This document shows positions 9,269-62,123 of a DNA stretch of 64,000 nt, piece after piece (position 1 is the first letter of the stretch; every line of letters starts with the position of its first letter). The notes under the pieces were generated by a model. The model had not been told where the DNA came from. It did no database searches and worked only from the letters and a program-made list of their open reading frames with translations. Source of the stretch: Psammoneis japonica (lineage: Eukaryota); contig QPGO01000139.1 in NCBI GenBank assembly GCA_008632985.1, positions 1 to 64,000 of the forward strand, given 5' to 3'. The translations under genes and the position numbers were made by a program.

Positions 9269-9311
9269 CTCCCTTCAACAATGTCGGGTGGAATGATGAC
9301 TCGAAAACGTC

Positions 9312-15056: not shown

Positions 15057-15116
15057 AGTGACAGCAGAGTAAAGTAGAATCGAGAGCTTAAGATCGATTG
15101 ACTTAACTTGTAGATT

Positions 15117-31326: not shown

Positions 31327-32089
31327 CATTCTCTAGCTAGAGCTAGAGAGAAGCGTGCACAGGGCTATAGTAGCTAGAAATCTATTAACTAAGCAAGTGG
31401 CATTTGCCTGTATTAAATAGAAACCTCTCAATCTCAGTACTGTAAGCATCACCAGCAGTTTCAGTTCGACTGGTCGAGTAAGGAATCAAGTTGACGTACG
31501 GACTAAAATGATCTCATCAGTCTGCACATGCAAAGAAACAGGCAAAGCAAAATGTGTGTCAAGTGATTGTGTGTTAGAGTGCTTGCAGAAGCTCACAGAA
31601 CTGTTCATTTCAAATCTTGCTCCATGCAACCACCATGCATCTGGCAGACTTGGAGAAAGCAAGAGAGCTTTTCTCTGTGCTAACGACCCTCTCCCCACAA
31701 CTCTTGTCAATCACGGCAACACAAGTGGGCCAGAAGTTTGGTTTCCAACAAAAGAACTTTGCCTGCAAATTCTTGTCTGTCAAGAAACAAGTGGATGATG
31801 GGTCATTTTGCCTTTTGGCACATGCAGTGATGAGTTGATTTGTGCCAAGTGACTGGCACAAAAAAATTCATCAACTTTGGCATGGTTCCTGTGCCTTTCC
31901 AGAGGTTTGCTTTGGTCAAAGAAATGGTGGTTGCAATCACAGACCATTGCTCATGGGAAAAGGCTCAAGTGTGTTTTGTTGGTTGTGACTCTTGCACATG
32001 ACTGTTGTCGATCATTTGGTGTTGTGGTGTCAGTCATTTTGGCTGGTGAGGGTTCCAATGACATCACTCCTGTTGGTTGTCTGTCACTG

Positions 32090-32540
32090 CCCACCATCCA
32101 AATCTGCCAATTGAGGAAAAGCTTGAAGTTGGAGGTTGTTTGTGGTTCTTTCTTTTTACCTGCTTTGTCCCCTGCATTGTTGTTGGGTGACATGCAAGTG
32201 CCACACAAGTTTCTCATTGAAATGAAAAAAGCAACACAAAGACAAATGGGCAGCCAATTTAGAGCCGCGCCAGTTGTCTGCCACTGTGCTGCCCAAATCT
32301 GCCAACTGAGGAAAAGCCCAAAGTCTGAGGTCACATTCATTGCTCTTTCTCATTGCTTGCTTTCTTGTTGTTGCACTTTGCCATTGTTGGACAAAATGCC
32401 AACATTGTGTGAGCATGTGCTGAAGCAGAAAAGTCAAACAAAGACAAATTGGCCAATTTGAAGCCACACCAGCTGTCTGTCATTTCACCATCCAAATCCA
32501 CCAATTGAGAAAAAGCTTGAAGTTGGATGTTGTTTGCAAT
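32090..32540 (+). repeat. Degenerate direct repeat, period about 196 bp
   Basis: ccaaatc(tg/ca)ccaa(t/c)tgag(g/a)aaaagc recurs at about 32098, 32294 and 32492. Confidence 0.65.
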
Positions 32541-32975
32541 TCCCAGCCATCTTGAAGTGCAAGCCATTGCAAAGCTTTTTAACTTGCTCGAGCTGATGAC
32601 CAAACTCCTCACAAGAAAAGATGAGATGTTGTGCAGCCAAGTCACAAGATTTGGAGCTGTTTTCTTTTGTCTTGTCCACTTTATGCTGCACATCATGCAC
32701 CTCCTGTTTTTGCAAATGATGACTTTCCAACTCATCAAAGCACTTGTCAATGGTTGGACATGGGCACAACTTGAGACTTGTTCCCTCATTTGACATGTTG
32801 CCATGGTGCAGCTCCCCAGCTTGATGGAGAGTCATCACATTGTGAGACCAGAAGAGGCACAAACAGAACACAACTGTCTTCTCAGCATTGGAGCATCTGG
32901 ACCACAGGATGAAAAACCCAAGTCCATTGAAAAAAAAATGCTTTGGCTCCTGACATGGTGATGCAAGCAACTGTT

Positions 32976-33984
32976 TGTCAAGGAATTTTCATGGCCACTG
33001 AACCCTCACCTCTGCTTTCATCTTGCTGTTTGGAGTGAGTTGTTTGGTGCATCATCCATTTGCCTTTCAGCACCACTGGGCACCTGTTGTTGCACAAATT
33101 TGAAGTTTGCACTGACAACTTCTGGGCAACCCAAGGCCAAGCAACAAAGACTGCCAAGTTCTTGAATGCAGTGGGCATCACAGGAAGCCTTGCAGGACTC
33201 CTTTTTGGGGATGTTGACTTGCTGGTTCAACACTCACTCCAAAGAGGCCCTGATGCTGCTTCAAGTGCTTGTGCCTGCCAACCCACAGTTGACAGAACAC
33301 TGCACACCTGCAAAATGAGTGACAGAGGAAGAGGCAGCACAAGCGGAAGGACCAAGGCCAAAGCATGGCCAAGGCAGAGGTGACAACAGTTGCAGGTCCT
33401 CTGGCCAGAAGAAGAAGACCAACAAAAAAGCTTTCAGCCTGACACAAAGTTCCACCCTTGCTTGCTTCATCACTGAGTGGCAATTTTTGCAGCAGTGCAT
33501 GTGAAGACATCAAAGAGAAAGCCTTCTTTTGCTTGCAAAAAGAGTGTGAGCAAGGTGCGAGCATCTGATGATGTCTTTGGAAGACATGAAGTGCAAGGGG
33601 TGTGGTTCTGAGAAGCTCACCTCGAAGGTGTCACCAGCGAAAATGCCCAAGGCAAGCATTGCAGAGTGCCACAAGGCACCAAAGGAAGGAACAGCATGAA
33701 GACAAAGAACTCAAGTGCAAAGCGGAGCTGAGCAACTACCACAGCAAAGTGGCGCAGTTTGAAGAATGAGACAACTGCACCTGTCAAGATCCTGGAAGAT
33801 TGCTGCACCAAGCTGATGAAGCAAAAGTGCAGGGCAATCCCAGATGCTCCAGCACTGGGGATGATCCAATCAAGCTGAGGAAGAAGCTGATCCAACCCCT
33901 TGCACTTGACTCAATGAGATGTGGGCACCCATTGCAACAACAAAACAACAAAACAACAAAACAACAAAACAACAAAAAAACAAA

Positions 33985-34015
<31 letters not shown>

Positions 34016-35954
34016 CACAACAACAACGACAACAATGACAACAACGACAACAATGACAACAACGACAACAACGACAACAACAATGACAACAAGCAACAAC
34101 AACAGCAGTTGGCCCAACAATGCAAAGGACCTGAGCCTTGCCCAGAAGAGCAGCTCCAGCAATGCTGTGGCATGCCACTGCTGGGGTGCACCAGGGCACA
34201 AGTCCCCAGGCTGCAAACATCTGAGCAACATTGCACACAACAGCTGCTGGTTCAAAAGCACCTGAACAAAACTGGATGTTGGGGGGCAGAGGCACACACA
34301 AACTTCAGCAGCAGGCAATGATGACCACCTGTTGGTGGATGGCAACAACGTGAGTGTCAACACCACCAGATCTAGCCAGCTGACCCACTCCAGCTGGAGC
34401 AGGAGCACGGCATGGCATGATGGGTTGCAACTGACAAACAAAAGGTCAGAAACAAGAAGTGTGAGCCAAGCCAATGCAGGCATCAAGAGCAACAAAATTG
34501 TCCTTGACAATGGCTTCACCCTCAGCATGCTGGACAAGAAGACTGGTGAGCAAGTCACAGTGTTTGGAGTTGACAATGTTGGACCATGTGCAATCACACC
34601 AAGCCAGCAATTCTTTGACCATGCAAAACATCTCCAAGAAGGTGAGTTGCATGTGAGAGCACTGAACTGTGGGTCTGATGGGGGGACATGCAAGCACTCA
34701 GACTATCTTGCAAGGCTGGAACACCCAGTGTGAGGGATTTTCAAGTGATTTTTGCATTCAAACCAGGTGAAGATCTTGTCCATCACACCTGAAGACATTG
34801 ACAGAATGGCAGCTGTTTGGGGTCCACCAATGGATGCACTGAAAGGCAAGACCAAACACATGCATTTTTTTCATGAGAGGAACAATGCCACAACAGCCAG
34901 CACACCTCAGCCATGCCAGAAGCAGAGAGAAGCAAGGTGTGATCCTCTGCATCAATGCTTTAGAAGCATGCTGAGTCAAGATGCTGCACGTGACAGACAA
35001 GACAATCAAGTGCCAATCAAGTGTGAGGCTAAAGTCAAAAGCACACTGATGTGTGGTGCAACACACTGGGACATGATTCTCCAACAGCACAACATGGTGC
35101 CACTCAAGTTTGGCTTCATTGCATGTGATCCCAAGTTGATGCAAAAGACAAGAGAGAGGGTCACACATTTGGGTGTGGTGAGAACACATCTTCTCTGCCA
35201 AAGTGGCATGACCCATCATTGAGAAGGCTCAGGTGCTGATGGAAGACATGAACAAACACATCAAACAGCATGCTCCAGAAGTTTGTGAACACATGTCTGC
35301 CACTGTTCCAACATTCTCCATGCACAAGGACAATGATGTGAGTGCACACCATGTGAGATTGGAGTGCATGACAGCAAGCACATTTGACCAAGGAACATTG
35401 GTGTGTCATTGGAGGCTGAGCCTCAAGGCAGGGCAAGGCATGTTGTTGCAAATGGAGGCAACGCACAGACAGTGTCATCAAACAGATGAGTTACAGCAAG
35501 TTTGTTGCTGGATCAAGAGGCAGGGATTTGAAGTTGGCCAAGACAGAAGTGATCCTCAATGCTCTTGGCCCAAAATTTAAATCATCAGCACAAACAACAG
35601 GAGTGTTTTGGAACATCCAGATCATCGGTGTTGTGAGGAATGCAGTGGCCCATTGAGAAAAAATGCTTTGACTCCTGATGTGGCATTGTGAGCAACCATT
35701 GGTGAAGGAATTTGAAGCTGCTGATCTCTCACCTCTGCTTTGGGCCTTCATCTCACCAGTTGTTTGGAGCAAATCATTTGGTGTGTCATCTGCTTGCCAT
35801 TTGGCATCACTGAGCACTGGTTGTTGCACAAGTTTCAAGTTTGCATTGACAACTTCTGGGCAACCAATCTGCTGTCAAGGTGAATGCAGCAAGCATCACA
35901 GGAAGCCCTGTGGGGCTCCCTTTTGGCAACATTGACTTGCCAGTTCAGCACTCA
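32976..35954 (+). mobile_element. Ancient, internally deleted Ty1/copia (CoDi-type) element with diverged LTRs (about 32976-33236 and 35700-35954)
   Basis: Flanking direct repeats share ctcacctctgcttt, ttgttgcacaa, gacaacttctgggcaacc and gcatcacaggaagcc. Internal relics: IVLDNGFTLS (protease-like), ITPEDIDRMAAVWGPPMDALKGKT (CoDi pre-integrase-like), KFGFIACDPKL (RT-like). Confidence 0.6.
33934..34107 (+). repeat. (CAA)n / (AAC)n imperfect microsatellite
   Basis: About 170 bp of caa/caaaa/gacaa units inside the relic gag region. Confidence 0.9.
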
Positions 35955-37199
35955 GGGCCCAAACAAACAAACTTGGAAGAGAAAGAAAATCCTTGCTTGT
36001 GAGGACCAGCAAAGCCAGACAACACCAGGTGCTCCTCTTTGTTCTTCAAATCTTGCACAGGCTGAAGCATTGCCATTGCAAACTCCTCATCCAACCCAAA
36101 GCATTTGAGTGCCTTGCCACAAAAAAAGACTGGGCACACTTGCAAGTTCTTTGTTGACAATGCCAAGAACTTGTTCAAAACATTGCTTGCTGTGCCATTT
36201 TTTCAACTGCAGCACAAACAACAAAGCATCAAAGTTGAGCATGTTGCTGCCCTGCTGAAGTCAACCTGCACTGGTGCATTGTGCTCAAAGAGCAAGTGCA
36301 AACAAGAGCAGAACAAATCACAAAAAGTGGAAAATTGTGAGATTGGATTTTGCTCTGCCAGTCTGGGTTTTTCCATGTGGGCTCTCAATGGCCCAAAGCA
36401 TTTGCACTGTGGTTGTTGCATGTCACAGTGCTCACAGAAGCTTGCAGAACAATCAATTTCAAATTTGGCTCAGCTGTGAAATGACCACATGTCCAGTCAA
36501 CTTCTTGGACAAAGCAAGCAGTTTCTCACTGACAACACTGCATTTGCCAGTCATCATCATGATGCAATGCTGCTGTGCTCAAACTGTCTGGACACACTTG
36601 CAATGATTGTCAATGTGTCTTCTGCATCCTTGAGACTCTTTCCAGGAAAAGCAAATTCAAGCTGAGCTGCAAAAAACTTTGGTTCTGAGTCTCAAGTCTG
36701 GGAGTCAGCAGAAATCTGAAACTGCACTTGCAAACTTCTTTCACATTAGCTTGGTTTGGACTGCATGCACTCCAACACTGCCCATGCATTGGTTTTGACT
36801 TCAGCACTGGCTTTCTGAGGACAATGACAAGCTCAATTAAAAATCCAGTGCACACACAAAATGAGGGCACATCTGACAACAAGAGTTTGGGTGACTGCAG
36901 GTCTTTTGAGGACAGTGCCCATGCTTGTGTCTGTTTGTTGATGGCATGCCATTTGCAAAATGGTTTGGTGTCAATGGTCCTGGCACATTTGTCACACCAC
37001 AATTTGCACTTGGCATGCCACAAAGAGGTCCTTGTCTCTTTCTCATCTCCTGCGGGGGCTGCTCCTGCTGCAGTTTTCATGATTTTTACACTCGCAACAC
37101 ACCTCTTCACATCTTTTGTTTTGGCCCCATGTGGGTGCATGTTGATGATGTGACGTGGCCATTGCTTTGATGCTTCTTGTGACTGTGTGCAGTCTCATT

Positions 37200-39400
37200 T
37201 TGATTGCTCATGTGCATGAGAGGGTTTTCCTTGTTTTTCATGTTCTTGGCAGCAGTGGCTGCCTTGAATCAATGCATGACTCATGCTTGCCAAGATTCAC
37301 ACATCCAGGACACTCAATTGGCATGCTTTTTTCTGGCTTGCACCCCCTCCAGCACATGCTTGTGGGCTCCATGCTGCCACACCTCAGCTCTGCCTGGAAC
37401 AAACCACTCTCTCCCACAAAGTGGCACAGTGAAGGCAAGTCAAGTCAATGATCAATGCAACAAGTTGAGATGGTTGGGCATGTGTGCAATGTTTGCAACT
37501 GCACATGACTCGTGAGCATTGCTTGTGTTCACAATGAAAGTTGGCCACCAGCAAGCAAGAAGGCAGCCAGGGTGTGGGGTCAGCAGCCACAGGCTTGGAG
37601 TTGCCAGCAGCAGGCTGAGCAACTGGCTCCCTTTGACTGGGTGCAGATGGGTTGGGAGTCAAGAGATTTCTTTTTTCAGCATTGGCGCATCTTCTTGGAG
37701 ATGCCTTGACTGTTCCACAGGAGGGTGTCTTCCAACTTGCCAGAACAACAAGGGGGACCCCTTTGGCTGGCCTGGCTTTTTTGCTCCCTTCACCTGTTGT
37801 TGTCCATCCTTCAACCTGGACACTCCTCCACCAGACGGCATTCATGTGGAAGTGGAGCTCATCACATGGCCATCAACTTGAAACAAGCTGGCATTTTTTG
37901 TTGAAGGATCATTCCTGTTTTGAGTTGGAGACACCCTGTCACAGCCTTGGCTCAGCTGCACCTCTTGGCAAGAACACATGTGAATGTTGTCACAGCATCT
38001 TGACACAGCTGCAAGTCTGTGGACACATTCACATGGCTTTTGCACAAGTGATGGGCATGAACGGATGTAAGAAGTCACATCTTGTGTGCTGCTGCTGAGA
38101 TGGCAGCAGCTGGCAAGGTGAACAAACACTGATCTTGTCTTGTGGCTCCAGAGTCCAGAGTGCCATGCATCCCAAGAAGCAGAAGTTGTTCCCTGTCACT
38201 GTGTGAACAGAAGGCTGGGATGGGAGGAGGGAAATTTTCAGTGTGGGGCACCATTTTTGGTTGGCAAACAGATCTCATGTCACACCAATGGCTCGCCAAG
38301 AACAACAAGGGATGTGCTTGGGCAGGCCTTGTCTTGCCATCGGCCATCTGTCCATCTCACTTCCACATCTGCACTGCTGTTGCTTGGTGTGCAAGGTGGG
38401 TGATGACAACTCCAAGAGCCCAACTGCCAACAAGAGATTCCACTCTGTCTTTGTCTTCTTGCAAGCTCAGCTCTCATGTGCTTTTGGCTCAGTGTGGACC
38501 TGAGCAGGATTGCTGCTGTGGCCAATTGGAGCTTTGATGTCTGACATTGAAATGCAAGCCAAAAGCATGACAAAACAATGTGTGAGTCCATGAACATCAC
38601 TCATTTGTCAGCCAACACAAACAACTGTCAAGTGATTGAGAAGCGGTGCACATGGTCTGCAAGTGCCTTGTTGACATGACTGCACCTGAGTGGCTTAAAA
38701 ATTCTTCCCATGTGGACCCCAAGTGTTTGACACAGCATCATCATGATGTTGTTGGTGCAAACAAAGGTGATTGGTGGTGGCAGTCCAGCCAATCATTTGC
38801 ACACATTGATGATCAGATGTAAAAATTGCAAGATTCTGGTGTTTGACACAGAAGCATGAAATTGACGTGGTCTTGATGATGGCAGAAAACAGCCCAGTTG
38901 GGTCAGAACTGCCAAGGAGGTCAACATCACTGTGCACAATCTTGCCTGGTTTGTCTGCAGCAGCCCTGGATGCCTTGGGCACCTGTGGGGGGTCTGGCCA
39001 GCATTGGTGGGCCCAGAGCACAGAGCACACATGTGGGGCGGGGGGCAGCAGGGATGTTGGCAATGTTGGTGTCAGGATGGTGTGTGCACAAGGCAGCTGC
39101 CCCACTGACCCCGCTCCAGTCATTTTGTAATTTGTTTCACACCTGGCACACACTGTTCTTCTGTGTGTGGCATGTGCATGGTCTGCTCCTGCTCAGCAGC
39201 TCTCATTGCAGCGCGTGCCTTTGAAGTGCTGGTGCCCCAAACACATGGGCATGTTGTGGTGGGGACTCAGGGGCAGCGCAGCATCATTGTGTTGGCAACA
39301 AGCCTTGGCTGACTTCACACTGCAGTTCAGTGTGCTGGTGCTTTTTCAAGGGTGGCAACACCCTGTTCCCAACCAACTTGCAAACCCTGCTGCTGGGGGG
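37200..39400 (+). mobile_element. Possible relic of a tyrosine-recombinase (DIRS/Ngaro-like) retrotransposon
   Basis: Weak motif resemblances in the expected order: TIFGWQ (RT), CTAVAWCARWVMTT (RNase H-like), GLRGSAASL (SLR.GGA-like box of YR). Heavily mutated. Confidence 0.2.
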
Positions 39401-39559
39401 TGCCCATGGTGTGGCAGGTGGTCCCATGCTGGCCAACTGGGCATTGACTTCTGAGCACATTTCCATGGATGGTGGCTCACAGTGAGGCCAGAGACATGTG
39501 AGTGGGCATCCATCTGCACAGCAACCAAGGACAATTCAAAGCAGCACACAGGAAAGCCT

Positions 39560-42300
39560 GTGGTGGCCAATCATCTGTCCCCTCAAAGATGGGGCAGCAA
39601 GGTCTGGCGCTGGGGCTGGGAGGTCTGTTCACTCTTGCCAGGAGCAGAGCCAATTGTTTGCAGCCAACTGGGTGTTGTGGACAAGAAGGGCTGGTGCAAG
39701 GTGTTGCATGGTGGGGTTGTGAGGTCACACTCAACACTCCAGCTCAGCTGGCGGCATTGGCAACCATGGTGGAGAGGGGGGGGGGGGGGGAGGTGCACTG
39801 GTGCACAACTTCTTTCTGATTGGTGGAGAGCGGTGCTGTCACATTGCACCTGCAGGCCACTTGGCAGCAGTGCATCTGCAGACTTGTGCAAAAGCAGCTG
39901 CTGGGGGGAGCTGCAGGTCCAGCCAAGGGGGGGGGGGCTTCTTGATCCACCATGAAAGACAAGGATGAATGGAGAGGGGTGTGCCACATGCACACCAGAG
40001 GGCACCTGTGGTGTGTGAGCAGTTGGGGGACACCCACACTTTGCCGAGATGATGTCATCAGCACTGTCCAAGAAGATTGTGGAAGTGCACTTCATTTCAC
40101 CCCTTCTTGACAATGAGTTGGAAGGTGTCAACCTGCACATTGTCAGGTGCAGCATGATGGAGGAGGCAGCCCCACCACCCAACGAGCCTTGAGCACCCAG
40201 TCAGACATGGCTGGTCAGAGCTCAGTGGTGCCAAGCATCTTGCCGTCATCAACGAAAGACCTGCCACTGTTTGCACGGCAATTGCATGGGCCAAGATGGT
40301 GGGCACATTCTTCATCCTTGTGACTGTCTGCTGGTTGCTTGATGTTGCAACAATCAACAACAACAAAGAATGACCTCCTTGGAAGATGCAGCAGTGTCTT
40401 GCCAAAGGTGTGCAAATCTTGGGTTCACTGTTCAATTGGTTTTTTGCAGAAAGCTCACAATTGACAGCACCTGTGGCTGCATTTCCAGGTTTAACAACAG
40501 CCTGCATTTCCATCCAGGAAGGCAGGGGGGCAATTGCAGCCTTCTGGCCAATGTCATGAGCTCCAGTCAAACATCTGCATTGTTTGACATTGTCATTCAA
40601 AAGGGAAAGGAAAGACTTGCAAGCCTTGATTTGGTTGAGCTGAGGAGGAACCACTCCAACAAATCTCTTCCTGAGGCAAAGGCATGCCACAGCCTGAGTG
40701 CAAACCTCCAGTTTCCAATCGTCTTGGGCTTGGGTGCATTGCCAAAATGATGGAAGTCCTCTCATCCACACCATGCTCCTCCTTGTGCAAGTGGAACAAA
40801 AGTGGATGAACAACTTGGACAAGTGGAAGCCAAAGAATTCATCTGCCATGTCAGCCAGGTTGCAGCCCATCCCAAGTGCCAACCAAAAGGAGCATCTGGG
40901 CTGTTGCACTCAAAAAGCACAGACCTGGAGTGCAGGCATGTGTTGCACATTGGACAGAAATCAACTCAAGGCAGTTAAGCTGGAACACCAAACACAAACA
41001 ATGGCACACCTCACAGACAAGTTGGGAGCATCCATTGGGGTCTAGGTTGCACTTGTTTTTGATGGTGAAAAACCCAGGCAACCAGCTGGTGTGCTCACCA
41101 TCATGCAATCCATTGCTGACACTGTGCCAAGACAATCAAATCATTGGAAGTTCCTGACATGCTGGGCCAGAATGGGATCACAGGCATCTTGATTTTTGCC
41201 ACATCATTGCACCCCTTGTGCATCTGCAAGTTGATTGCACAACATTTCAATTCGCTGGTTGCTGGGTCTGGTTGCATGCTCGACAGACCAATGACTTTGC
41301 TGCTGTCACCATTCTTGGTGTCATCTTGACACTCACAATCAAAGCCAGGTGCTTGCCATGTGGTGATGATTCTTGAACAGTCCATCATTGCCTTGGGGGG
41401 TCCATTGTGCTGCCAAACATTGTGCTGTGCTGTGGATGATTGGGGTTGGCAAAAGGGTGCTGACCCTTTGGGATGAAGGGTGCCATCTCACCTGACAATC
41501 CAGCAGCAATGGAAGATTTGATCATGGCATTGACAAAGGCAGGATTGGGCTCACGCTCGCTGGATTTTGACTGCAACTTGGGTGGCACATGTGTGGCTTG
41601 AAGCATGCTGGGACAGCTGTGTCCATCCGTGCTGGCAGTGTGTCCATTGGATTGGCCACCGGCGGCAAAGCCAACATCACAGAAGTCACTGGGTTTCTGC
41701 CATTTCATGGAGTTTTTCTTTGGAATGGCATTGAATTTACATCCAAATTCAATGCCCTCATGGACTCCACGCCAGTCAACCTCCTTCACCAAAAAGCACC
41801 AGCACCTTGGTCTCCTTTGTGGATGATTGTTGTGTTGTGTCATTGGTGTGGACAAACATTTTGGGATTGCACAAACACACAGCTGGAGACACACCCAGAG
41901 CTTCAAAAATCTGCTTCAGCTGCCTCATCAAAAAACCAATCTGGCGCTGGGCATGACCATGCTTGCCTTTGTGCAACAAATGTCCTTGGCACTTTGCCTG
42001 GGGCCAACAGCGAATCTCGGACACACACTCAAGGATGCGGTCAATGTCCAGTTTGCCTCTGTCAATGAAAGTGGATTTTTCTTCTCTGGAAAGATCAAAC
42101 CACTTGTCATTGAACTTCTTGATGAAAAAGCCATGGTTGAAAATAGAGTTCTTGTAGAGAGAAGCTGGCAAGGAGCGGCACAGATGCTGGAAATCTTGTG
42201 CAGTTTGGATGGGAGACATGGGTGGGCAGAAGCATTTGTTTGATGGATTGGCAGAAGCACACCATCAGTGTTTGCACCATGGGAAGTGGCAACATCAGCA
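39560..42300 (-). pseudogene. Decayed long coding relic, possibly an endogenised negative-strand RNA virus L (RdRp) gene
   Basis: Ordered motif resemblances: NQIK...(F), GAQGSLGGGAASSIMLH (B), LDSADDII (C), HKS...VQCDS (D/E). No clear motif A. Confidence 0.25.
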
Positions 42301-44450: not shown

Positions 44451-44519
44451 TCCAACAACAGACAGTTGCAAGCAGATGGCATCACCATTTTTAGCTCTGT
44501 GTCACATGTGCACAAAAGG

Positions 44520-45590: not shown

Positions 45591-45689
45591 GCAGCTACTG
45601 TACAGAGTATCGCCAAACGGACAGCCATGCCTTCACACTTGCCTGAACTCCTCCGTCAAAACCATGTCAAAACGAAGCTGGAATAAACA

Positions 45690-48444: not shown

Positions 48445-48558
48445 ACAGCACAGGCATTGTAGTGAAACTACGTCTATTGACAATTATGATTCTATCTGCG
48501 ATCGATCGATGTACTTTGCTTTCTTTGACACGAGTAGCTGTCCTTGTCTATCGCCCGT

Positions 48559-53321: not shown

Positions 53322-53996
53322 CAAAACTTGGCATGCCAACTTTGGAGCAAAGCTTGGCATGCCAACATTGGGGGGTGAAATTTTGTGTGCCAACTTTGAG
53401 GCAAACTTGGCTTGCCAACTTTGGGGCAAAACTTGGCATGCATGCCAACTGTGGGGCAAAACTTGGCATGCCAACTTTGGGGCAAAACTTGGTGTGCCAA
53501 CTTTGGGGCAAAACTTGGGGCAAAACTTGGCATGCCAACTTTGGCGCAAAACTTGGCATGCCAACTTTGGGGCAAAACTTGGCACGCCAACTTGAGCTTG
53601 GAACTTGGCATGCCAACTTTGGAACAAAGCTTGGCATGCCAACTTTGGGGGGTGAAATTTTGTGCGCCAATTTTGGGCAAACTTGGCTTGCCAACTTTGG
53701 GGCAAAACTTGGCATGCACGCCAACTTTGGGGCAAAACTTGGCATGCCACTTTGGCTCAAAACTGCTTGGCATGCTAACTTTGGGGCAAAACTTGGCACG
53801 CCAACTCAGGGGCAAAACTTGGCATGCCAACTTTTGGGGCAAAATTTGGTGCGCCAACTCTGGGGCAACACTTGGTGTGCCACCTTTGGGGCAAAACCTG
53901 GCACACCAACTTTGTGGCAAAACTTGGCACGCCAACTTTGGGGCAAAACTTGGTGTGCCAACTTTGGTGCAAAACTTGGCATGCCAACTTTGGCAA

Positions 53997-54562
53997 GGGA
54001 TCTGTGGGAAATTTTGTTTTCAAGCAAAAAACAGAGAATCTCAGTGAGTTCCAACCGTTTGCAACACCAACGGTGCAGCTGGCTGCACGTGCTTTTTCTG
54101 CGTGACAAGCTTGCACATTTTTGACACAACTTTGACACAATTTTTGAAACAAATCAAAGTTGCGCCACAGTTTCAAAAATGCACATCCGGGCATTTTTGG
54201 AATTCCTGCGAGACTTCCAGTGCAAAGTCTGCACAAGAAAATGCAGCCCGGGCGTGCATTTTGAAAGTTGCGCCACACATTTTGAAAAATGCACACACAG
54301 GTTTTTTTGCATGTGGAAGCCTGGTGCATTCCTGCACAACACAAAAGTCAGGACATTTTTGATTGTGCACATCCAGGTCTTTGCAAAACTTTTTTTTGTC
54401 TCTCACAGTTTTTTGCATCAAAAGTTGTGTCTAAAAATGTCTTTTCTGCGCGGTGGTGTTGGCAACAAATTTGGCTTGTCCAACAGATTTTGTGCTGGCA
54501 GGCATGACTCACATCAATTTTGACACACAGGTGGCAAAAATGGCAATTTCCCACGCAGACCC
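53997..54562 (-). mobile_element. MITE copy 2, inverted relative to copy 1
   Basis: Diverged reverse complement of 52763-53321 over its whole length; ends GGGATCTGTGGGAAA and TTTCCCACGCAGACCC. Confidence 0.75.
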
Positions 54563-56649
54563 AACAATGGGAATCTTTCAAAAATGACCCGTGATGTAAA
54601 ACGCACAAATCACTTGTGGACGTCCGTAGAATCTGCACGTTTTTGCACCAAAACTGTCATCGTCTCAAAACTTTTGCAAAAAAGGAAATCACTGCTGGCT
54701 GATCAGGCGCATTTCTGCAAATGTGTTGTTCTAAAATGCGCCTGATCAGTTTGCAGCAAAGTCCATTTTTCGCAGAATTAAAATTCACCAAGGGCAGACG
54801 GACAGACAATTTCACATTTTTGCTGGGACTGTTCCACATGATTTCTGCGTGTTTGTGAAACAATGACTCTGCGGCACAAAAGATTGCCACTGACTTGGCA
54901 TGCCAACTTTGGGGGGCGAAACTTTGTGCACCAACTTTGAAGCAAACTTGGCATGCCAACTTTGGGGTGAAACTTTGCACGCCAACTTTGAAGCTGACTT
55001 GGCTTGCCAACTTTGGGGCAAAACTTGGCATGCACACCAACTTTGGGGCGAAACTTGGCATGCCAGCTTTGGCTCAAAACTTGGCATGCCAACTTTGGGA
55101 CAAAACTTGGCATGCCAGCTTTCACGCAAAACTTGGCATGCCAACTTTGGGGCAAAAATGGGCACGCCAACTTTGGCACAAAACATGGCATGCCAGCTTT
55201 GGGGCGAAACTTGGCATGCCAACTTTGGGGCAAAACTTGGTGTGCCAACTTTGGAGCAAAACTTGGCATGCCGACTTTGGAGCAAAACTTGGGATGCCAG
55301 CTTTGGGGGGTGAAACTTTGCACGCCAACTTTGAAGCAAACTTGGCTTGCCAACTTTGGGGCAAAACTTGGCATGCCAACTCTGGGGCAAAACTTGGCAT
55401 GCCAACTCTGGGGCAAAACTTGGCATGCCAACTTTGGGGCAAAACTTGGTGTGCCAACTTTGGAGCAAAACTTGGCATGCCAACCTTGGGGGGCAAAACT
55501 TTGTGCACCAACTTTGAAGCAAACTTGGCTTGCCAACTTTGGGGCAAAACTTGGCATGCCAACTTTGGCTCAAAACTTGGCATGCCAACTTTGGCACAAA
55601 ACTTGGCATGCCAACTTTGGAGCAAAACTTGGCATGCCAACTTTGGGGGGTGAAACTTTATGTGCCAACTTTGAAGCAAACTTGGCTTGCCAACTTTTGC
55701 ACAAAACTTGGCACGCCAACTTTGTTGGGGCCAAACTGGGCACACCAACTTTCGAGCAAATGTCGGCATGCCAACTTTGGAGCGATGCTTGGCATGCCAA
55801 CTTTGGGTCAATCAACACATGGTTGATTGATGCAGCCTGAGTGTCCAAGAGTTGAAAATGGGCAGAAGATGTTGGCGGCAAGAGAGCAGGTGAGATGTGG
55901 AGAGAACACAGCAACAGGAGGTGCAGCAAGTTGTTGCCTGCATCAAGACACTCAAAATCAAGGTGTCCAGTCTTGTGACATTGGCAATGGTGTTTGCATC
56001 AGGAGGAGTGCCAGAGTCACCCTGACAGAGCATTTTGGTGGCCAAAGACAGATGAGAAAGAGATGTGTCAGTGGCTGGCAACAAATCAGGGTCATCCTCT
56101 TTCACAGTGCCCCACAAGGGATCTCCGTGTCAGCTGGTTTGTTGACCAAGATCAGAAGAAGGGGTGTCCTCAACCTCTGGAGATGAGGAGTTGAGCACAT
56201 GTGGTTCATCTGTGCACTGCTGCATGGATTTTGTGGGGGCTGGTTGTTCCCATTGGAGGTGCAATGGCTCTGATGGTTGGATGGGTCAAGATGTTGAGCA
56301 GGGCTGTTGGCATTGGAGCACTGGGGTTGGGTGCAGCTTTCAAAGGACAAACAGACAAAAAGTTGCAGTGTGAGATGTGCCAACAATTGTGGACAATGTG
56401 GCAAGGGCACTTCAAGTTTGCACTTGAAGCTTGGGCTGAGTTTTGCAGGTCATGTGCTCACTTGGTTGTTGGCTTCTGCACCCAGCTGACATGGCAACAA
56501 CAGCTCTGGCAACAGCCAAGTGGTTGCAAGCCACACATTGAGTTTGGAGATGGTGAGACTGAATGAGTGCCACAGCAAGTGAGCTGCGAAGCTTCAACAC
56601 AGAAGCCAAAAGGTCATGGCACCATGGTCAAAGGAGCAGTGTTGTGTTT

Positions 56650-56745
56650 GAGGGCTGGGAAGTCAAGAGGAATCTGCACAGTGAGGGCTGGGAAGTTGAG
56701 AGGAATCTGCAGATGAGGGCTGGAAAGTTCACAGGAATCCAAAAG
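56650..56745 (+). repeat. About 33-bp tandem repeat, three copies
   Basis: gagggctgg(g/a)aagt...aggaatc repeated three times. Confidence 0.75.
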
Positions 56746-57149
56746 GAAAAGGCAATGAGGTTGACAGGAATCCAAGGGCGTGCCTCATGTTGGCAGATTG
56801 CAGCAAACAACCTGGATGGACAATCTCTGGAGGGCCTTGCTGTTGAGGTGACAGCCAGGTGTTTGCATGCAATTTCTGGCACCCTGTGGACTTCAGCACA
56901 AATTCTTCCAGGGCTCCTCAGCTTGGCCAAACCACACTTTCAATTGCCCACATTTTCATCAAAAAAGCCAATTGTCACAACCAAAGAAGAGTCAAACCAT
57001 CACAAGTGCCTGCACAGGGGGGGACATGGTTTGGGGGTCAAAGTGCACTTTTGAACCTCATGTCACAAGACAAGTGCATTTCTTGCCTGCAAAGGGGTTT
57101 GCAAATGCAGGCAGAGATGACCTCATCTGTGTGGGGGTTTGCAAATGCA

Positions 57150-59500
57150 GGCAGAGGCAACACAAGAGTGCCCCAGATTGGCAACAAGAACACTCTCTTG
57201 CCCAGACAACAAGAGTGTCCCTTGTCAGCCAAAAATGTTTTTGTCTGAACAAGAGTGTTCTTCTGGGCCAGTGCAAGAACATTCTTGCCCAGAGAAGAAT
57301 GTTGTTGCCCAGACTGAAACTTCCCAGACAAGCCAGCAAAATGTTTTTGTCTGGACAAGAATTTCTTGCCCAGACAAGAGTGTCCCAGACCAGCCAGGAA
57401 TGTTCTTTCCCAGACAAGAATGCTCTTGCCCAGACAAGAACATCCTTGCCCAGAAAAGAGCACCCTTGCCATTGTTGTCCAGGCTTGAATGTTCCAGGCA
57501 AGCCAGGTGTGTTTCAATCAGGGTGTGAATTTTCTTGCCCAGATGAGAATGCTCTTGCCCCTTGCCCAGACAAAAATGTCCAAGACCAGCCAAAATGTTC
57601 TTGTCTGGACAAGAGTGTTCTTGCCTGGACAAGAGTGTTGCACACCAGGACAGGAACATTCTTGCACAGACAAGAATGTTGTTGCCCAGACTGAAGTGTT
57701 CCAGACAAGCCAAAAATGTTTTTGTCTGGATGAGAATTTTTTGGCCATTTGAGAGTGTGTCCCAGACCAGCCAAGAATGCTCTGGCCCAGGCAAGAGCAC
57801 TCTTGCCAAGACAAAAATGTTGTTGCCCAGGCTGGAATGTTTCAGGCAAGCCAAGTGTGTTTTTGTCTGGACACAAATTTTGCTGCCCAGACAAGAATGC
57901 TCTTGCCAAGATGAGAGCATCGTTGCCCAGACAAGAGTGTTTCCAGACCAGCCAAAAATGTTCTGGGCCATTCTTGCCTGCAAACACAAGAGTGCCCCAG
58001 ATCAGCAAAGAATGTTCTTGTCCAGACAAGAATGTTCTTGCCCAGCAGACAAGAACATCCCAACCAGCCAAAAACAACATTCTTGTCTGGAGTCTGGACA
58101 AGAATGTTCTCACCTGGAAAGAGTGTTCCAGACAAGGGCAAGAACATTCTTGCCCAGATGAGAATGTTGTTGTGCCCAGACTGGAGTGTTCCAGACAAAC
58201 CAAAAATGTTTTTGTCTGGACAAGAATTTTCTCACCCAGACAAAAGTGTCCCAGACCAGCCAGGAATGTTCGCACCTGAACAAGAATGCTCTTGCGCAGT
58301 GGACAAGAGTGCTCTTGTCCAGACAACAATGTTGTTGCCCAGGCTGGAATGTTCCAGGCAAGCCAAATGTGCTTGTGTCTGGGTGCAAACTTTCTTGCCC
58401 AGAAAAGAATGCTCTTGCCTGGACAAGAGCATTGTTGCCCAGACAAAAGTGTTCCAGACCAGCCAAAAATGTTCTGGGCCATTCTTCCCTGCCAGGCAAG
58501 AGCACCCCAGATTGTCAAAGAATGTTTTGGCCCAGACAAGAATGTCCCAGACCAGCCAAAATGTCCCCCTGTCTGGACAAGAATTTTCTTGCCTGGACAA
58601 GAGTGCTCCAGACCAGGACAAGAACATTCTTGCTCAGACAAAAAAGTTGTCACTCAGAGTGCTGTGGACCAGCAAGGAACACTCTTGCCCAGACAAGAAC
58701 ATTGTTGCCCAGACCAGACTGGAGTGCACCAGGCATGCCAAGGGTGTTTTTTGTCTGGATGTGAAATTTTCTTGCCCAGAAAAGAATGCTCTCATCTGGA
58801 CAAAAACATTGTTGTCTTGCCCAGACAAGAATGTCCCAGACTGGCAAAAAGTGTTCTTGTCCAGAGACAAGAGTGTTCTTGCTTGGACAAGAGTGCTGCA
58901 GACCATGACAAGAACATTCTTGCCCAGACACGGCAGTTGTTGCCCAGAGTGTCCCACACCAGCCAGGGACATTTTGCCCAAACAATCAATGCTCTGGCCC
59001 AGACAAGAGAGTTGTTGCCCAGGCTGAAATGTTCCAGGTGAGCCAAACGTGTTTTTTGTCTGGACACGAATTTTCTTGCCTGGACAAGAGCATTGTTGCC
59101 CAGACAAGAGTGTTTCAGGCCAGCCAGAAATGTTCTGTGCGCTCTTGCCCCCAGGCAAGAGTGCCTCAGGTCAGCAAAGTGTGTTTTTGCCCAGCAAAGA
59201 ATGTTCTTGCCCAGACAAGAATGTTCCAGACCAGTCAACAAAAATGTTCTTGTCTGGACAAGAATGTCATTGCCTGGACAAGAGTGTTCCAGACCAGGGA
59301 AAGAACATTCTTGCCCAGACAAGAATGTTGTTGCCCAGACTGGAGTGTTCTTGCCCAGACAAGCCAAAAATCTTTAGTCTGGACATGAATTTTCTTGCCC
59401 AGATGAGAGTGCCCCAGAACAGCCAGGAATGCTCTTGCCCAGACAAGAACATTCTTGCCCAGACAAAAGCACTCTTGCCCCCAAACAAGAATGTCATTGC
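57150..59500 (+). repeat. Second satellite built from ~20-bp units (TTCTTGYCYRGACAAGARTG) with higher-order organisation
   Basis: About 2.3 kb of cttgcccagacaag / cttgtctggacaag / cttgcctggacaag units interspersed with ccagaccagcca motifs. Confidence 0.92.
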
Positions 59501-60040
59501 TCACAAGCTTGAAACAGTGGCAGAGTTTGCAAGAGTTTTAAAGGAGTGGGATGTGGCAGAGCCACTGGGCATTCTCAAGTTGATCTTGTTTGATGCAAAT
59601 GAGAAGACAACCCCCAAGCAGCAGCTTGTGCTTGTTCACTGAGACAAAGGAGAAGTGCTTCAAGACTGTTGCGATTGGTTTGTGGTGAGCATGGTTGAAA
59701 TGAAGGATCATCCTGGAAGAAATTGCCAAGAAAGAAGATTGGCTCAGCTTGGATGCTGATGACACCTGGAGCAAATGTGGGGTCAAGTTGTTGGCAGCAA
59801 TCGATGCTGATGGAAGGTTTCAAGAAATGTTGGCATGTCTTGAAAAGACCTGCATCAGCAGCTTGCACTGGGGGTTGACAAATTGTCCCAATTTGGCTGC
59901 TGAGGAGGCACTGCAGGTGTGGGACATGCATGGAGCCAACAAGAAACCTGAGGGTGCAAGTTTTGCACAAAACAAGAAGAAGCAGATGTCAAATGCTGAA
60001 AATGTGACAAGGTTGGGCATGTGAAAAAGGATTGCCCTTG
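59500..60040 (+). mobile_element. Retrotransposon gag relic with CCHC zinc knuckle
   Basis: 59994-60035 reads C-*-K-C-D-K-V-G-H-V-K-K-D-C (CX2CX4HX4C). Upstream ADGRFQEMLACLEK...TNCP resembles copia gag. Confidence 0.65.
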
Positions 60041-62123
60041 GCTCAATGACGACAATGATTGTTCACTGGTGGCAGAGTGTGGGATGATCTGGGCCATGGC
60101 AGTCAGTGCTGGAACAGCTGAGGTGGTGTTGGATGGCATGGTTTTCAAGTGTCATCCCCTCCTGCAGTTGGCACACATGAGGCCAGTCAATTGATGGCTC
60201 ATGCAAAGGAGTGTGTTGGAACATTGAGGCGCAAGGTGGTTTTTGCAGGACAGACAGACAACATTGCAGTGAAAGGGCACACCGGCAATTTTGGATGATG
60301 TGGCAAATTTATGTTTGCAGCTCTTGTTGAGCTGCGGGTCTTTTGCTCACTTTTTAGCTTCTGCACCTGGTCAACATGGCAACAGCACTGGAAATGTGTT
60401 TGCAGGCTGTGTGGCAAGTTTGGGATTGGCAAGACCAAGCACCTGCCAGCCAGCAAGCCACGAAACTTCAACACCAGTCACTCCTCCTCCAAGCCATCTG
60501 TGGGCAACTCCAGCAAAGACAAAGTGCTTTTGGAGCCCTCCTGTGAGACAGTGGTCGAGTGCACAAACACTTGCCCAAATGTTGCCCCCTCTGTCAAGTC
60601 ATCAAAGTTTGCCAAACTTCCCTGCACTGCCAGAGCAATTTGTCAAACAAAAAAGATTGGCTAAGACAGCTCTGTTTGTTGCTGATGAGAGAGTGAAAAT
60701 GACAGCAGCAAGCCGCAATGAAAGAGTGCCACAGCACATGTGCACATGTGACGCAGAGCATGCCATGCTCACCATGCATGCTCTTGTGCTGCATTTTTGC
60801 TGATGCCTTCTGTTGCACTGCCTCTTGCACACAACACCTTTTCTCTTTTGCTTTTTTCCAGAAATCAAGCTGTTGTTGTCAAAGCACAGAGAAAAGACAC
60901 CGCCACCTGCTGGGTGCCTCCTCAACTGGGCAAAACTTGGTCAGTGGAGTCAATCCAAAAAACAGGGTTTTGTTTTTTTTCTTTGTTGTCAAGATGCAGC
61001 AGTAACCCCCCAGCAGTGTCCAAGGTGATGAGAGCACTGCCTCTGATTTGAGCCTCTCTCCTTCTCACCCAGCCGGACTTGTTGCACCACACATGCCACA
61101 TGTTGTTGTTGTGGCGCGACACACGTGGGGAGAGATCACATGCCCTCCCAATTGCTCAAGATTCCTTGAGAATTGCACTGCTTTTTCTTCATCAAGATTG
61201 GCCAAATGATGCTTGGCAAAGCTGCAAGTGGGGTGGGATGAGGTGAGGACTTGTGGCAAGTGCATGCTGCGGGTGCATCACACGCGAAGCGAGCGAGCGA
61301 GGGACAAACCCTTTCAGTTTTTTGAAATCGAGCAAGTGGGGGACTGCAGCATTCAAAAAGCATGGAATTCTCGGATCACACTTTGCCCTGTTGTAAATTG
61401 AAATCACGTGGTGAAAGCATGGCAAAACTGGCAAGTGGCGGAGAGCGCCCAAATGACAATTGGAAGGAAAGCAACGTTGTGTGGAGCCTGTCCCAGACAC
61501 ATGTTCTCTGATGCAAACAGAAACTTTTGCTCAGAATTTTGTTGAAAGAACTGTTTTGGACAATTCCCAAGTTCACCAGGGTGAAGCACGGGAAATCACT
61601 CACCGAGTTGCCACGCAAATCGCCAGCAATTGTCTGGCGATGCTTTGCAATGCTGTGTGGTCAATGCATGACTTCTTTTCCGACACATCGAACTGGCACA
61701 ACTCATTGTCAGATGTGTCAAAGCAAAACTGTCATTTAGCAGAGTGTTCTTCGGTGGTTAAATGTGGTCAGAAGCAGTTGTGGCTTTCCACCGTGCTTTC
61801 GTCGTGGCATCAATTTTATAACACGGTGAAGCATGTACGTAAATTCATACCAGGTTCTACAACAACAGCATGTAGATGAGCACCGGCATTAATGTGCCAC
61901 ATGATGTATTCATGTATGGATGTTTTGTAATAAAATTGATCCCCTGCGGTCTGTCTGTCCCTCTCCCTTCACGCACCACGTACTTATCTGACGAAGGCCA
62001 GACTGCCGGACACGTTGCCGTTGATTTCCTACGTCACAGACCAAAATCTTGGACATCAACTCAAATGAACGAGAAAAGTAGGAGGCAACATCTCGCTCAT
62101 TGTGGCCATCGACAACATCAACG

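What the first reader, a model, noticed from the sequence alone, without database searches (positions are those of the whole stretch)
31505..61850. Candidate 'reverse-RIP' genome defence: repeat domains purged of TpA (TA to CA/TG) as well as CpG
Seen: two TE/satellite domains (about 31.5-45.3 kb and 50.8-61.85 kb) have almost no TA, few CG and a large TG/CA excess (no TA or CG found by eye in 36001-36600). The genes between and around them are normal, and composition switches within a few hundred bp. Established: diatom TEs carry DNMT5-type CG methylation, which explains CG>TG/CA; fungal RIP creates TpA rather than destroying it. Inference: a second, repeat-targeted T>C / A>G process acts at TpA. 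Candidate mechanisms are an error-prone Pol-eta-like repair patch (WA>WG, as in phase II of somatic hypermutation) triggered by deaminated 5mC, or a TA-preferring adenine deaminase. It converts Tyr to His/Cys, removes TAA/TAG stops and TA-type target sites, and would irreversibly inactivate TEs. I know of no named system like this.
Basis: partly seen in the sequence, partly recalled or inferred. Interest (0 to 1): 0.95.

Follow-up and report, generated by a model that had tools for sequence, protein, structure and literature searches.

The report
TpA-purged silent DNA in a diatom
Two silent stretches of a diatom chromosome have had nearly every TA and most CG steps rewritten to TG or CA, the footprint of a TA-directed hypermutation so far reported only once, in an unrelated alga, in a 2026 preprint.

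Summary
Window 31505-45353 and 50787-61736 (24,799 nt) hold 54 TA where about 1,029 are expected, and 278 CG where about 1,371 are expected. TG+CA rises by the amount lost, so pyrimidine-purine steps stay at 24.16% against 24.09% in the flanks. Edges are under about 150 nt wide.

Contigs of a public run reproduce the sequence at flank depth and cross the left edge, so a base-calling artefact is unlikely.

The change arose in place, by transitions:
- A tandem array straddles the right edge. All 13 TA of an outside unit are CA, TG or CG in the inside unit.
- A young Copia element outside the domains has 7 of 10 LTR differences at TA steps (P=2e-6).
- Duplicates inside domain 1 differ at 14 steps by CA versus TG.

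TA loss reaches 0.7-1.1 kb beyond CG loss, so these are two processes. Single-copy stretches are purged too, so targeting follows a silent domain rather than repeats.

The host is a diatom. The same signature was measured in Bigelowiella natans (bioRxiv 10.64898/2026.01.13.699255). This is therefore a second lineage, not a first case. The enzyme is unknown.

The parts
31505..45353 (.). TA-purged domain 1. It lies between two expressed genes and is a mosaic of multi-copy and single-copy DNA.
   Evidence: TA positions. There are 33 TA in 13,849 nt. X1 contigs reproduce it at depth 50-62. The spliced contigs of X2 stop at 31278 and resume at 45625.
31505..44250 (.). Core of domain 1, which has lost both TA and CG.
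   Evidence: TA o/e 0.03 (n=29), CG o/e 0.11 (n=87), TG 1.86, CA 1.92.
44251..45353 (.). Zone purged of TA but keeping CG. It is part of a multi-copy family.
   Evidence: TA o/e 0.07 (n=4), CG o/e 0.78 (n=59). Word depth is 300-530.
45006..45525 (+). Tandem array that straddles the right edge of domain 1. Inside units are converted, the unit at 45362-45418 is half converted, and the unit at 45440-45496 is TA-rich.
   Evidence: Sequence. Inside 45092-45205 against outside 45418-45531: 72.8% identical, 96.5% identical in purine/pyrimidine coding, 27 transitions and 4 transversions. The 13 outside TA are 6 CA, 4 TG and 3 CG inside.
50787..61736 (.). TA-purged domain 2, mostly satellite DNA.
   Evidence: 21 TA in 10,950 nt. 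The longest TA-free run is 55659-59375.
61071..61736 (.). Zone at the right end of domain 2 purged of TA but keeping CG.
   Evidence: TA o/e 0.02 (n=1), CG o/e 0.59 (n=23).
52204..55811 (.). Three blocks of a 26-bp satellite (52204-52759, 53322-53993, 54893-55811), partly in inverted arrangement.
   Evidence: In 77 units, columns 18-19 read CA 55, TG 13, CG 1, and columns 20-21 read TG 64, CG 9, CA 4.
57274..59480 (.). Degenerate 20/61/121-bp satellite.
8921..15480 (-). Young Copia-type LTR retrotransposon outside the domains, at an early stage of the same TpA process.
   Evidence: RVT_2, gag_pre-integrs, SH3_retrovirus and Pol_BBD hits. The 351-nt LTRs are 97.2% identical. It has one in-frame TGA and one frameshift. 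Overall TA is 3.93%, which is normal.
8921..9271 (-). 3' LTR, with 13 TA.
15130..15480 (-). 5' LTR, with 8 TA. It carries the non-TA state at 6 of the 7 TA-type differences.

Best explanation
These are two transcriptionally silent chromatin domains of a diatom chromosome whose DNA was rewritten in place by two independent transition processes.

Process 1 is fast. It converts TpA to TpG or CpA, that is A>G on either strand. It acts on duplex genomic DNA, hits both strands equally, and is bounded by position (the ends of the neighbouring expressed genes), not by sequence homology or copy number.

Process 2 is slower. It is the ordinary decay of CpG to TpG/CpA, as expected from deamination of 5-methylcytosine in methylated silent DNA.

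Both feed the same sink, so the domains end with no TA, little CG and doubled TG/CA, at unchanged G+C and unchanged pyrimidine-purine step content.

Process 1 has the same signature as the TpA-only hypermutation measured in mutation-accumulation lines of Bigelowiella natans.

Shown here: the composition, the edges, transition-only divergence, TA as the ancestral state at the edge array, enrichment of post-insertion LTR changes at TpA, strand symmetry, and separability from CpG loss.

Inferred: that the trigger is a chromatin state; that the chemistry is enzymatic deamination of adenine in TpA, with TTAA a poor substrate; that CpG loss reflects methylation; and that the effect is irreversible inactivation of invading or repeated DNA.
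For: 1. Mass balance. TA+CG loss is 8.34 points and TG+CA gain is 8.42 points. The YR total is 24.16% against 24.09%. Applying only 'TA>TG/CA, CG>TG/CA' in silico to the flanks reproduces the 16-dinucleotide profile of domain 1: r=0.965 and rmsd 0.78, against r=0.670 and rmsd 2.39 for the unmodified flanks.

2. Polarity. In the edge-straddling array, all 13 TA of the outside unit are CA (6), TG (4) or CG (3) in the inside unit, with 27 transitions and 4 transversions. Most paralogous contigs carry TA where the window has TG or CA at 36377, 43497 and 44592.

3. Change after duplication. Internal duplicates 32924-33236 and 35650-35954 differ by 47 transitions and 14 transversions, with 14 steps CA in one copy and TG in the other and no TA or CG intermediates.

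4. Action on integrated DNA. Of 10 differences between the Copia LTRs, 7 are TA against TG/CA, although only 8% of LTR positions lie in a TA (binomial P=2e-6). Only 1 is CG-type, with 18-19 CG per LTR.

5. Strand symmetry. TG:CA is 1584:1657 and 1219:1199. The runs test gives z=-0.87 in domain 1.

6. Not an assembly quirk. X1 contigs, at word depth 50-62 inside and 57-59 in the flanks, match with 27 other letters in 9,137 nt, and one contig runs 28500-33243 across the edge with 1 other letter.

7. Still going on. Of the 23 shown full-depth differences between X1 and the window inside domain 1, 5 are TA<->TG/CA and 9 are CG<->TG/CA.

8. Silent. The spliced contigs of X2 cover both flanking genes and next to nothing of the domain.

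9. Independent precedent. In B. natans, 230 of 231 de novo mutations in two silent viral insertions were A>G or T>C, all of them at TpA (main text read).
Against: - No de novo mutation was observed here; the rates are inferred.
- X1 comes from one sample and study and may be the very sample the window was assembled from. Its library type is not on record, so the platform argument is not airtight.
- Polarity rests on one edge array, three paralog sites and one LTR pair without an outgroup.
- The strict sequential TpA-only model cannot produce the 3 TA>CG double conversions.
- The simulation underpredicts G+C (0.465 against 0.488), overpredicts AT steps and underpredicts GC steps. Either the ancestor was more TA-rich than the flanks or something more is acting.
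- No TE or viral protein is recognisable in 128 ORFs, so 'defence against invaders' is an inference.
- None of 198 windows in 17 other diatom-like metagenome contigs shows the signature.
- Methylation and chromatin state were not measured.
Confidence: 0.8

Rival explanations
1. Artefact. The DNA really carries TA and CG with modified bases, and a base-caller or polisher read them as the other purine or pyrimidine.
For: Both lost steps are palindromic, the kind of site DNA-modifying enzymes prefer. The library of X1 is not on record, and X1 may be the assembly's own data.
Against: X1 gives long contigs at even word depth (50-62), which calls for accurate reads, and these agree with the window. 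X1 and the window differ in both directions at CG steps (5 CG>TG/CA and 4 TG/CA>CG), so there is no one-way miscall. Satellite units carry fixed TG/CA states in most copies. The LTR pair shows the same change in otherwise TA-normal DNA. The same mutation type was called de novo from Illumina reads in another alga.
Confidence: 0.05
2. Foreign or special-purpose DNA that was TA- and CG-poor from the start, through horizontal acquisition or selection against the two steps. No in-place mutation.
For: No homology to anything was found. In B. natans the targets are viral insertions.
Against: The edge lies inside one tandem array whose outer units keep TA. There are CA-against-TG alternatives between internal duplicates. 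The YR step content equals that of the host flanks to 0.1 point. TA/CG polymorphism persists within the domain.
Confidence: 0.03
3. Error-prone repair patches (Pol-eta-like, WA>WG) set off by deaminated 5mC.
For: TA loss and CG loss coincide over most of both domains.
Against: AA is not depleted (9.21% against 7.87%). Zones 44251-45353 and 61071-61736 lack TA but keep CG. The LTRs show 7 TA-type changes against 1 CG-type. In B. natans the hypermutable regions showed no accompanying C>T.
Confidence: 0.04
4. RNA-level A-to-I editing (ADAR-like) of repeat transcripts, followed by reverse transcription and reinsertion.
For: ADAR prefers a U upstream of the edited A (as stated in the preprint's discussion).
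Against: Both strands are hit equally and without strand runs. Satellites and single-copy DNA are purged too. The two LTRs diverged after integration. The edge cuts through a tandem array.
Confidence: 0.03
5. A repair or conversion bias in heterochromatin, rather than a dedicated editing enzyme: for example T:G-type mismatch correction towards G:C, or oxidised thymine at TpA mispairing with G.
For: The outcome is a pure AT>GC transition. The double TA>CG outcomes (3 of 13) need repair that uses the altered strand as template.
Against: Known GC-biased conversion is not dinucleotide-specific; this statement is recalled and was not tested here. Near-complete, TA-only loss, with TTAA spared (13 of 54 residual TA against 61 of 1,354; P=1.6e-6), points to site recognition.
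Confidence: 0.05

Closest known systems
TpA-restricted hypermutation of integrated viral DNA in Bigelowiella natans (Mettrop et al. 2026, bioRxiv 10.64898/2026.01.13.699255; main text read, supplements closed)
   Same: The changes are A>G/T>C at TpA only, giving TpG/CpA on both strands. They are confined to discrete, silent regions next to normally mutating genes. [quoted passage not shown]
   Different: The host is a diatom (stramenopile), not a chlorarachniophyte (rhizarian). The domains here are saturated (TA o/e 0.03, against 0.45 for the B. natans NCLDV region). The content is satellites, unidentified DNA and an LTR retrotransposon rather than recognisable viral genes. CpG loss occurs alongside; the preprint never mentions CpG (0 occurrences). 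TTAA sparing, TA>CG double hits and an edge inside a tandem array are not described there (0 occurrences of context, flanking or TTAA). No de novo rate was measured here.
Repeat-induced point mutation (RIP) of Neurospora and other fungi
   Same: It is irreversible, dinucleotide-specific transition mutagenesis of unwanted DNA with sharp borders.
   Different: The direction is opposite: RIP turns CpA into TpA and makes DNA AT-rich. RIP is triggered by sequence duplication. Here single-copy DNA is purged and homologous repeat units outside the edge are spared.
CpG decay of methylated DNA (5mC deamination), as in vertebrate genomes and methylated TEs
   Same: It accounts for the CG>TG/CA half of the signature and its slower pace.
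   Different: It cannot remove TA. Methylation of these domains was not measured.
APOBEC/ADAR hyperediting footprints in retroelements of animals
   Same: A deaminase-type transition signature with a neighbour preference, used against mobile elements.
   Different: Those act on single-stranded DNA or on RNA intermediates and leave strand-coordinated tracts in retro-copies. Here both strands of resident duplex DNA are affected evenly, satellites included.

Membership tests
TpA-targeted hypermutation (B. natans type) | Changes are almost only A>G / T>C transitions | tested here: met
   Edge array: 27 transitions, 4 transversions. Internal duplicate: 47 and 14. X1 contigs: 229 transition places against 63 transversion places.
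TpA-targeted hypermutation (B. natans type) | Changes fall on TpA and give TpG or CpA, on either strand | tested here: met
   7 of 10 LTR differences. 13 of 13 outside TA are converted in the inside unit. TG:CA is balanced. AA, AC and AG are not depleted.
TpA-targeted hypermutation (B. natans type) | Confined to discrete regions beside normally composed genes | tested here: met
   Edges at 31505, 45353, 50787 and 61736, each under about 150 nt wide.
TpA-targeted hypermutation (B. natans type) | Targets are foreign (viral or TE) and transcriptionally silent | tested here: inconclusive
   Silence: the spliced contigs of X2 are nearly absent from domain 1 (contigs show presence, not absence). Foreign origin: 0 family hits at or above cut-off in 128 ORFs. 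One Copia element does show the early stage.
TpA-targeted hypermutation (B. natans type) | Raised de novo rate seen directly in mutation-accumulation lines | not testable with these tools
   Only one sample holds the locus. The indirect sign is 3.0 other letters per kb inside against 0.66 per kb in the right flank.
Fungal RIP | C>T at CpA, producing TpA excess and AT enrichment | tested here: not met
   TA o/e is 0.03, CA and TG are doubled, and G+C is unchanged.
Fungal RIP | Triggered by, and limited to, duplicated sequence | tested here: not met
   Single-copy stretches are purged. Array units outside the edge are spared.
Pol-eta / somatic-hypermutation phase II type patch | A>G at WA (AA as well as TA), dependent on prior C deamination | tested here: not met
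   AA is 9.21% inside against 7.87% outside. TA-free zones with CG o/e 0.78 and 0.59 exist.
5mC-deamination decay of CpG | CG replaced by TG/CA | tested here: met
   CG is 1.12% against 5.53%. CG<->TG/CA polymorphisms make up 9 of the 23 shown differences.
5mC-deamination decay of CpG | The region carries cytosine methylation | not testable with these tools
   No methylation data. TE methylation in diatoms is recalled knowledge.
ADAR-type RNA editing fixed by retro-copying | Strand-coordinated A>G in retro-copies only | tested here: not met
   Runs test z=-0.87, TG:CA 1584:1657. Satellites are affected too.

The most novel reading that the evidence does not exclude
TpA-directed DNA editing is an old genome-defence system guided by chromatin domains and shared by distant SAR lineages (diatoms and chlorarachniophytes). 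Its still unidentified enzyme recognises the palindromic TpA step in duplex DNA, can hit both strands of one step (TA>CG), handles TTAA poorly, and works about ten times faster per site than CpG decay. It marks everything inside a silenced domain, whether repeated or not.
Probability: 0.35. Interest if true: 0.9.

Novelty: new member of a known kind. Interest (0 to 1): 0.75.

Why it matters
Outside fungi, sequence-level (as opposed to epigenetic) inactivation of invading DNA in eukaryotes is barely documented. The one report of TpA-only hypermutation is a 2026 preprint on a chlorarachniophyte.

Finding the saturated end state, an intermediate state and an early state of the same signature within one 64-kb stretch of a diatom has three consequences. 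The process is not a curiosity of one lineage. It can run to completion. It follows silent chromatin domains rather than repeats.

Diatoms include genetically tractable models, so the enzyme hunt becomes feasible: candidates are deaminase or thymine-modifying genes shared by diatoms and B. natans.

The work also gives a simple genome-wide marker for such domains (TA o/e below 0.1 with TG/CA near 2). And it carries a warning for annotation: these domains have almost no TAA/TAG stops, so they are full of long spurious ORFs (60 ORFs of 150 aa or more overlap 31000-62500, most of them inside the domains).

Tried and rejected
- Whole genome of the window: not held. No genome-wide scan or TE consensus was possible.
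- The look-up of sequencing runs failed once and then worked. It found only one sample, so there is no independent strain.
- Pfam on 65 ORFs of 130 aa or more from both domains, and on 63 ORFs of 75-129 aa from domain 1: nothing at or above cut-off. There were 5 weak sub-threshold hits (NPR3, DUF3400, Gp38_N, GCS, Mucin), taken as chance.
- tblastn of the window's Copia proteins against the domains: best E 0.44.
- Purine/pyrimidine-coded BLAST of the domains against the window: only the edge array is meaningful. The 25-48-nt hits are expected by chance in a two-letter alphabet.
- Protein atlas with the PspA/IM30 (VIPP1-type) ORF: bacterial PspA clusters, no help for taxonomy.
- TPMT-like ORF homologues: best 52% identity, named hits from diatoms and plants; not decisive alone.
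- Earlier findings of this scan: none for this genome or sequence. Word hits were phage cases of other kinds.
- Other diatoms: the 17 loci of 2.5 kb or more (out of 80 metagenome loci around PspA/IM30 homologues) gave 0 of 198 one-kb windows with TA o/e under 0.2. This is a small, gene-rich sample and says nothing about how widespread the process is.
- tRNA and Rfam scans as possible boundary elements: 0 and 0.
- Literature: searches found no description in diatoms. One search was rejected for a term's syntax.
- X2 and X3 cover next to nothing of the domain. This is used only as a hint of silence.
Full report
**The observation**

Sliding 1-kb dinucleotide ratios show two blocks in which TA is 0.00-0.06 of expectation, CG is mostly 0.0-0.3, and TG and CA are 1.5-2.5. 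Elsewhere in the window TA is about 0.4-0.9 and CG about 0.8-1.2. TA positions put the edges at 31505-45353 and 50787-61736.

| | Length | TA | CG | TG | CA | YR steps |
|---|---|---|---|---|---|---|
| Domains | 24,799 nt | 54 (0.22%) | 278 (1.12%) | 11.30% | 11.52% | 24.16% |
| Flanks, Copia excluded | 32,602 nt | 1,354 (4.15%) | 1,803 (5.53%) | 7.34% | 7.06% | 24.09% |

At flank frequencies the domains should hold about 1,029 TA and 1,371 CG. What TA and CG lose (8.34 points) TG and CA gain (8.42 points), so the pyrimidine-purine step content is unchanged. G+C is also unchanged (0.487 against 0.475). The longest TA-free run is 3,716 nt inside against 164 nt outside.

**Is the sequence real?**

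No whole genome is held. One public sample holds the locus. Contigs of its DNA run X1 have the same word depth inside (50-62) as in the flanks (57-59). They match with 27 other letters in 9,137 nt, and one contig crosses the left edge (28500-33243) with one other letter.

Differences at CG steps between X1 and the window go both ways: 5 are CG>TG/CA and 4 are TG/CA>CG. That is not what a one-way miscall of a modified base would give.

X1 may be the assembly's own sample and its library type is not on record, so I leave 5% for an artefact.

**What the domains contain**

Domain 2 is mostly satellite: 26-bp units in three blocks and a degenerate 20/61/121-bp repeat.

Domain 1 is a mosaic. By X1 word depth, 33.2-37.2 kb, 40.5-41.2 kb and 42.5-45.2 kb are multi-copy (about 100-640). 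Stretches 37.2-40.5 kb and 41.2-42.5 kb are single-copy (57-81).

None of 128 ORFs reaches a Pfam cut-off, and there is no similarity to the Copia element in the window. With TAA and TAG nearly gone (42 against 502 TGA), long ORFs in all frames are expected by chance.

Run X2 of the same sample gives spliced contigs with GT..AG gaps of 119, 92 and 92 nt. They cover the genes on both sides, up to 31278 and from 45625, and next to nothing between. The domain therefore fills the silent space between two expressed genes.

The flanks carry ordinary genes: RMI1, PspA/IM30, TENA, amidohydrolase, short-chain dehydrogenase, TPMT, EF-hand, fatty-acid hydroxylase and SBF.

**The host**

For the PspA/IM30 (VIPP1-type) ORF, the named hits among the 120 listed are diatom names or stems that I read as such. 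Three full names are Cyclophora tenuis (78%), Seminavis robusta (74%) and Nitzschia inconspicua (73%). Two more are Mayamaea pseudoterrestris (73%) and Amphora coffeaeformis (71%). Truncated MMETSP names begin Trice, Nitzsc, Dacty and Step. The best hit overall is 82%. That these are diatom genera is recalled knowledge.

The host is thus a diatom whose proteins are not in the collection. It is not Bigelowiella.

**The change happened in place, by transitions, from TA and CG**

1. A tandem array at 45006-45525 straddles the right edge of domain 1. The inside unit 45092-45205 and the outside unit 45418-45531 are 72.8% identical, but 96.5% identical in purine/pyrimidine coding (27 transitions, 4 transversions). 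All 13 TA of the outside unit are CA (6), TG (4) or CG (3) inside. The unit at 45362-45418 is half converted. The border is therefore a gradient of about 100-150 nt inside a repeat, not the end of a repeat.

2. The internal duplicates 32924-33236 and 35650-35954 differ by 47 transitions and 14 transversions. At 14 steps one copy has CA and the other TG. This is what independent resolution of an ancestral TA or CG in each copy would give.

3. In the 26-bp satellite the same columns read CA in 55 units and TG in 13. These counts are not independent events, because units amplify.

4. Most paralogous contigs elsewhere in the genome carry TA where the window has TG or CA, at 36377, 43497 and 44592.

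5. A simulation that applies only TA>TG/CA and CG>TG/CA to the flanks reproduces domain 1's full dinucleotide profile. It gives r=0.965 and rmsd 0.78, against r=0.670 and rmsd 2.39 for the unmodified flanks.

**An early stage in the same window**

The Copia-type LTR retrotransposon at 8921-15480 on the minus strand has RVT_2 and integrase-associated domains. It also has one in-frame TGA and one frameshift. Its overall composition is normal, with TA at 3.93%.

Its two 351-nt LTRs must have been identical at integration. They now differ at 10 positions. Seven are TA against TG or CA, one is CG against CA, one is AG against AA, and one is a transversion.

Only 8% of LTR positions lie in a TA, so 7 of 10 has binomial P=2e-6. 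About a quarter of the TA steps have changed, against 1 of about 37 CG steps. Per site, the TA process is therefore roughly ten times faster than CpG decay. There is no outgroup, so direction is inferred here.

**Two processes, not one**

TA loss extends beyond CG loss at the right end of both domains.

| Zone | TA o/e | CG o/e |
|---|---|---|
| 44251-45353 | 0.07 | 0.78 |
| 61071-61736 | 0.02 | 0.59 |

Together with the LTR result, this gives a time series:
- A young element has scattered TA hits.
- An intermediate zone has TA gone and CG kept.
- The old core has lost both.

The first zone belongs to a multi-copy family with word depth 300-530, which fits a younger insertion.

**How the TA process behaves**

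- Both strands are hit equally. TG:CA is 1584:1657 and 1219:1199, and there is no run structure in domain 1 (z=-0.87). The z=+6.0 in domain 2 reflects the satellite's periodicity.
- Only TA is affected. AA, AC and AG are not reduced.
- The 54 surviving TA are biased. The 5' neighbour is T in 29 and the 3' neighbour is A in 29, against 21% and 23% in the flanks. ATA and TAT are nearly gone (3 and 4). TTAA accounts for 13 of 54, against 61 of 1,354 in the flanks (odds ratio 6.7, P=1.6e-6).
- Three of 13 TA became CG. A strictly sequential TA-only rule cannot do that. It suggests both strands of one step can be hit in a single episode and fixed before replication; this is inference.
- Variation is still segregating. 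Of the 23 shown full-depth differences between X1 and the window inside domain 1, 5 are TA<->TG/CA and 9 are CG<->TG/CA. Only 40 of 295 rows were shown.
- Other letters run at 3.0 per kb inside against 0.66 per kb in the right flank.

**What this excludes**

- RIP-like homology triggering: single-copy DNA is purged, homologous units outside the edge are spared, and the direction is the opposite.
- A Pol-eta WA>WG patch dependent on 5mC deamination: AA is untouched and TA loss occurs without CG loss.
- RNA editing followed by retro-copying: the strands are hit symmetrically, satellites are affected, and the LTRs diverged after integration.
- Inherently odd foreign DNA: the edge lies inside an array, and the YR content equals the host's.

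**Comparison with what is known**

A full-text search turned up Mettrop et al., bioRxiv 10.64898/2026.01.13.699255. I read the abstract, results and discussion, plus term searches. Its supplements are closed.

In mutation-accumulation lines of Bigelowiella natans, 231 of 302 nuclear single-nucleotide mutations fell in two silent integrated viral regions. Of those, 230 were A>G or T>C, all at TpA, at about 6e-7 per site per generation. [quoted passage not shown] The authors propose an ADAT2-like adenine deaminase, without a test.

The signature is the same as here. The preprint says nothing on CpG, flanking context, diatoms, or borders inside repeats. Four further searches found no diatom report.

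The finding is therefore a second, distant lineage for a very recently described kind. Here it is seen at saturation and together with independent CpG decay.

**Limits**

- There is no genome-wide view, no methylation or chromatin data, no de novo events and only one sample.
- The origin of domain 1 is unknown.
- The simulation leaves G+C (0.465 against 0.488) and the AT and GC steps imperfectly explained. This probably means the ancestor was richer in TA runs than the gene-rich flanks.
- A look at 17 other diatom-like contigs found no such window (0 of 198). That sample is too small and too gene-rich to bear on how widespread the process is.

**Verdict**

Its 'repeat-targeted' and Pol-eta elements are not, and its claim of no precedent is out of date by one preprint.

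Noticed in passing
window 8921-15480 (-): A nearly intact Copia-type LTR retrotransposon with 351-nt LTRs 97.2% identical. Its gag-pol is interrupted by one in-frame TGA (13572-13574) and one frameshift near 11.4 kb. The 5' LTR (15130-15480) carries the non-TA state at 6 of the 7 TA-type differences, and the 3' LTR at one.
   Followed up: partly
window 26445-27274: Downstream of the TPMT-like (methyl halide transferase type) gene at 25618-26649 lie two degenerate partial copies of its 3' part, 71-77% identical (repeat families D11, D13, D15). Their TA/CG composition is normal.
   Followed up: no
window 30863: Both the DNA contigs (X1) and the spliced contigs (X2) of the public sample lack 30 nt that the window has here, inside the EF-hand gene region. 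This is an in-frame length difference between the assembly and that sample.
   Followed up: no
window 52977-53241 and 54082-54346: A 265-nt inverted repeat (86% complementary) brackets the middle 26-bp satellite block, so part of domain 2 is arranged as a large palindrome.
   Followed up: no
window 33935-34104: A (CAA)n microsatellite of about 59 units inside domain 1. Read laying skipped it as a repeat.
   Followed up: no
window 28970-31278: Spliced contigs show three GT..AG introns of 119, 92 and 92 nt in the gene that ends in the EF-hand domains. The TA-free domain starts 227 nt after the last base these contigs cover.
   Followed up: partly
window 31505-61736: The domains have almost no TAA or TAG (42 in all, against 502 TGA), so they are filled with long meaningless ORFs in all six frames, up to 379 aa at 57514-58653. 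Gene callers would over-predict here.
   Followed up: yes
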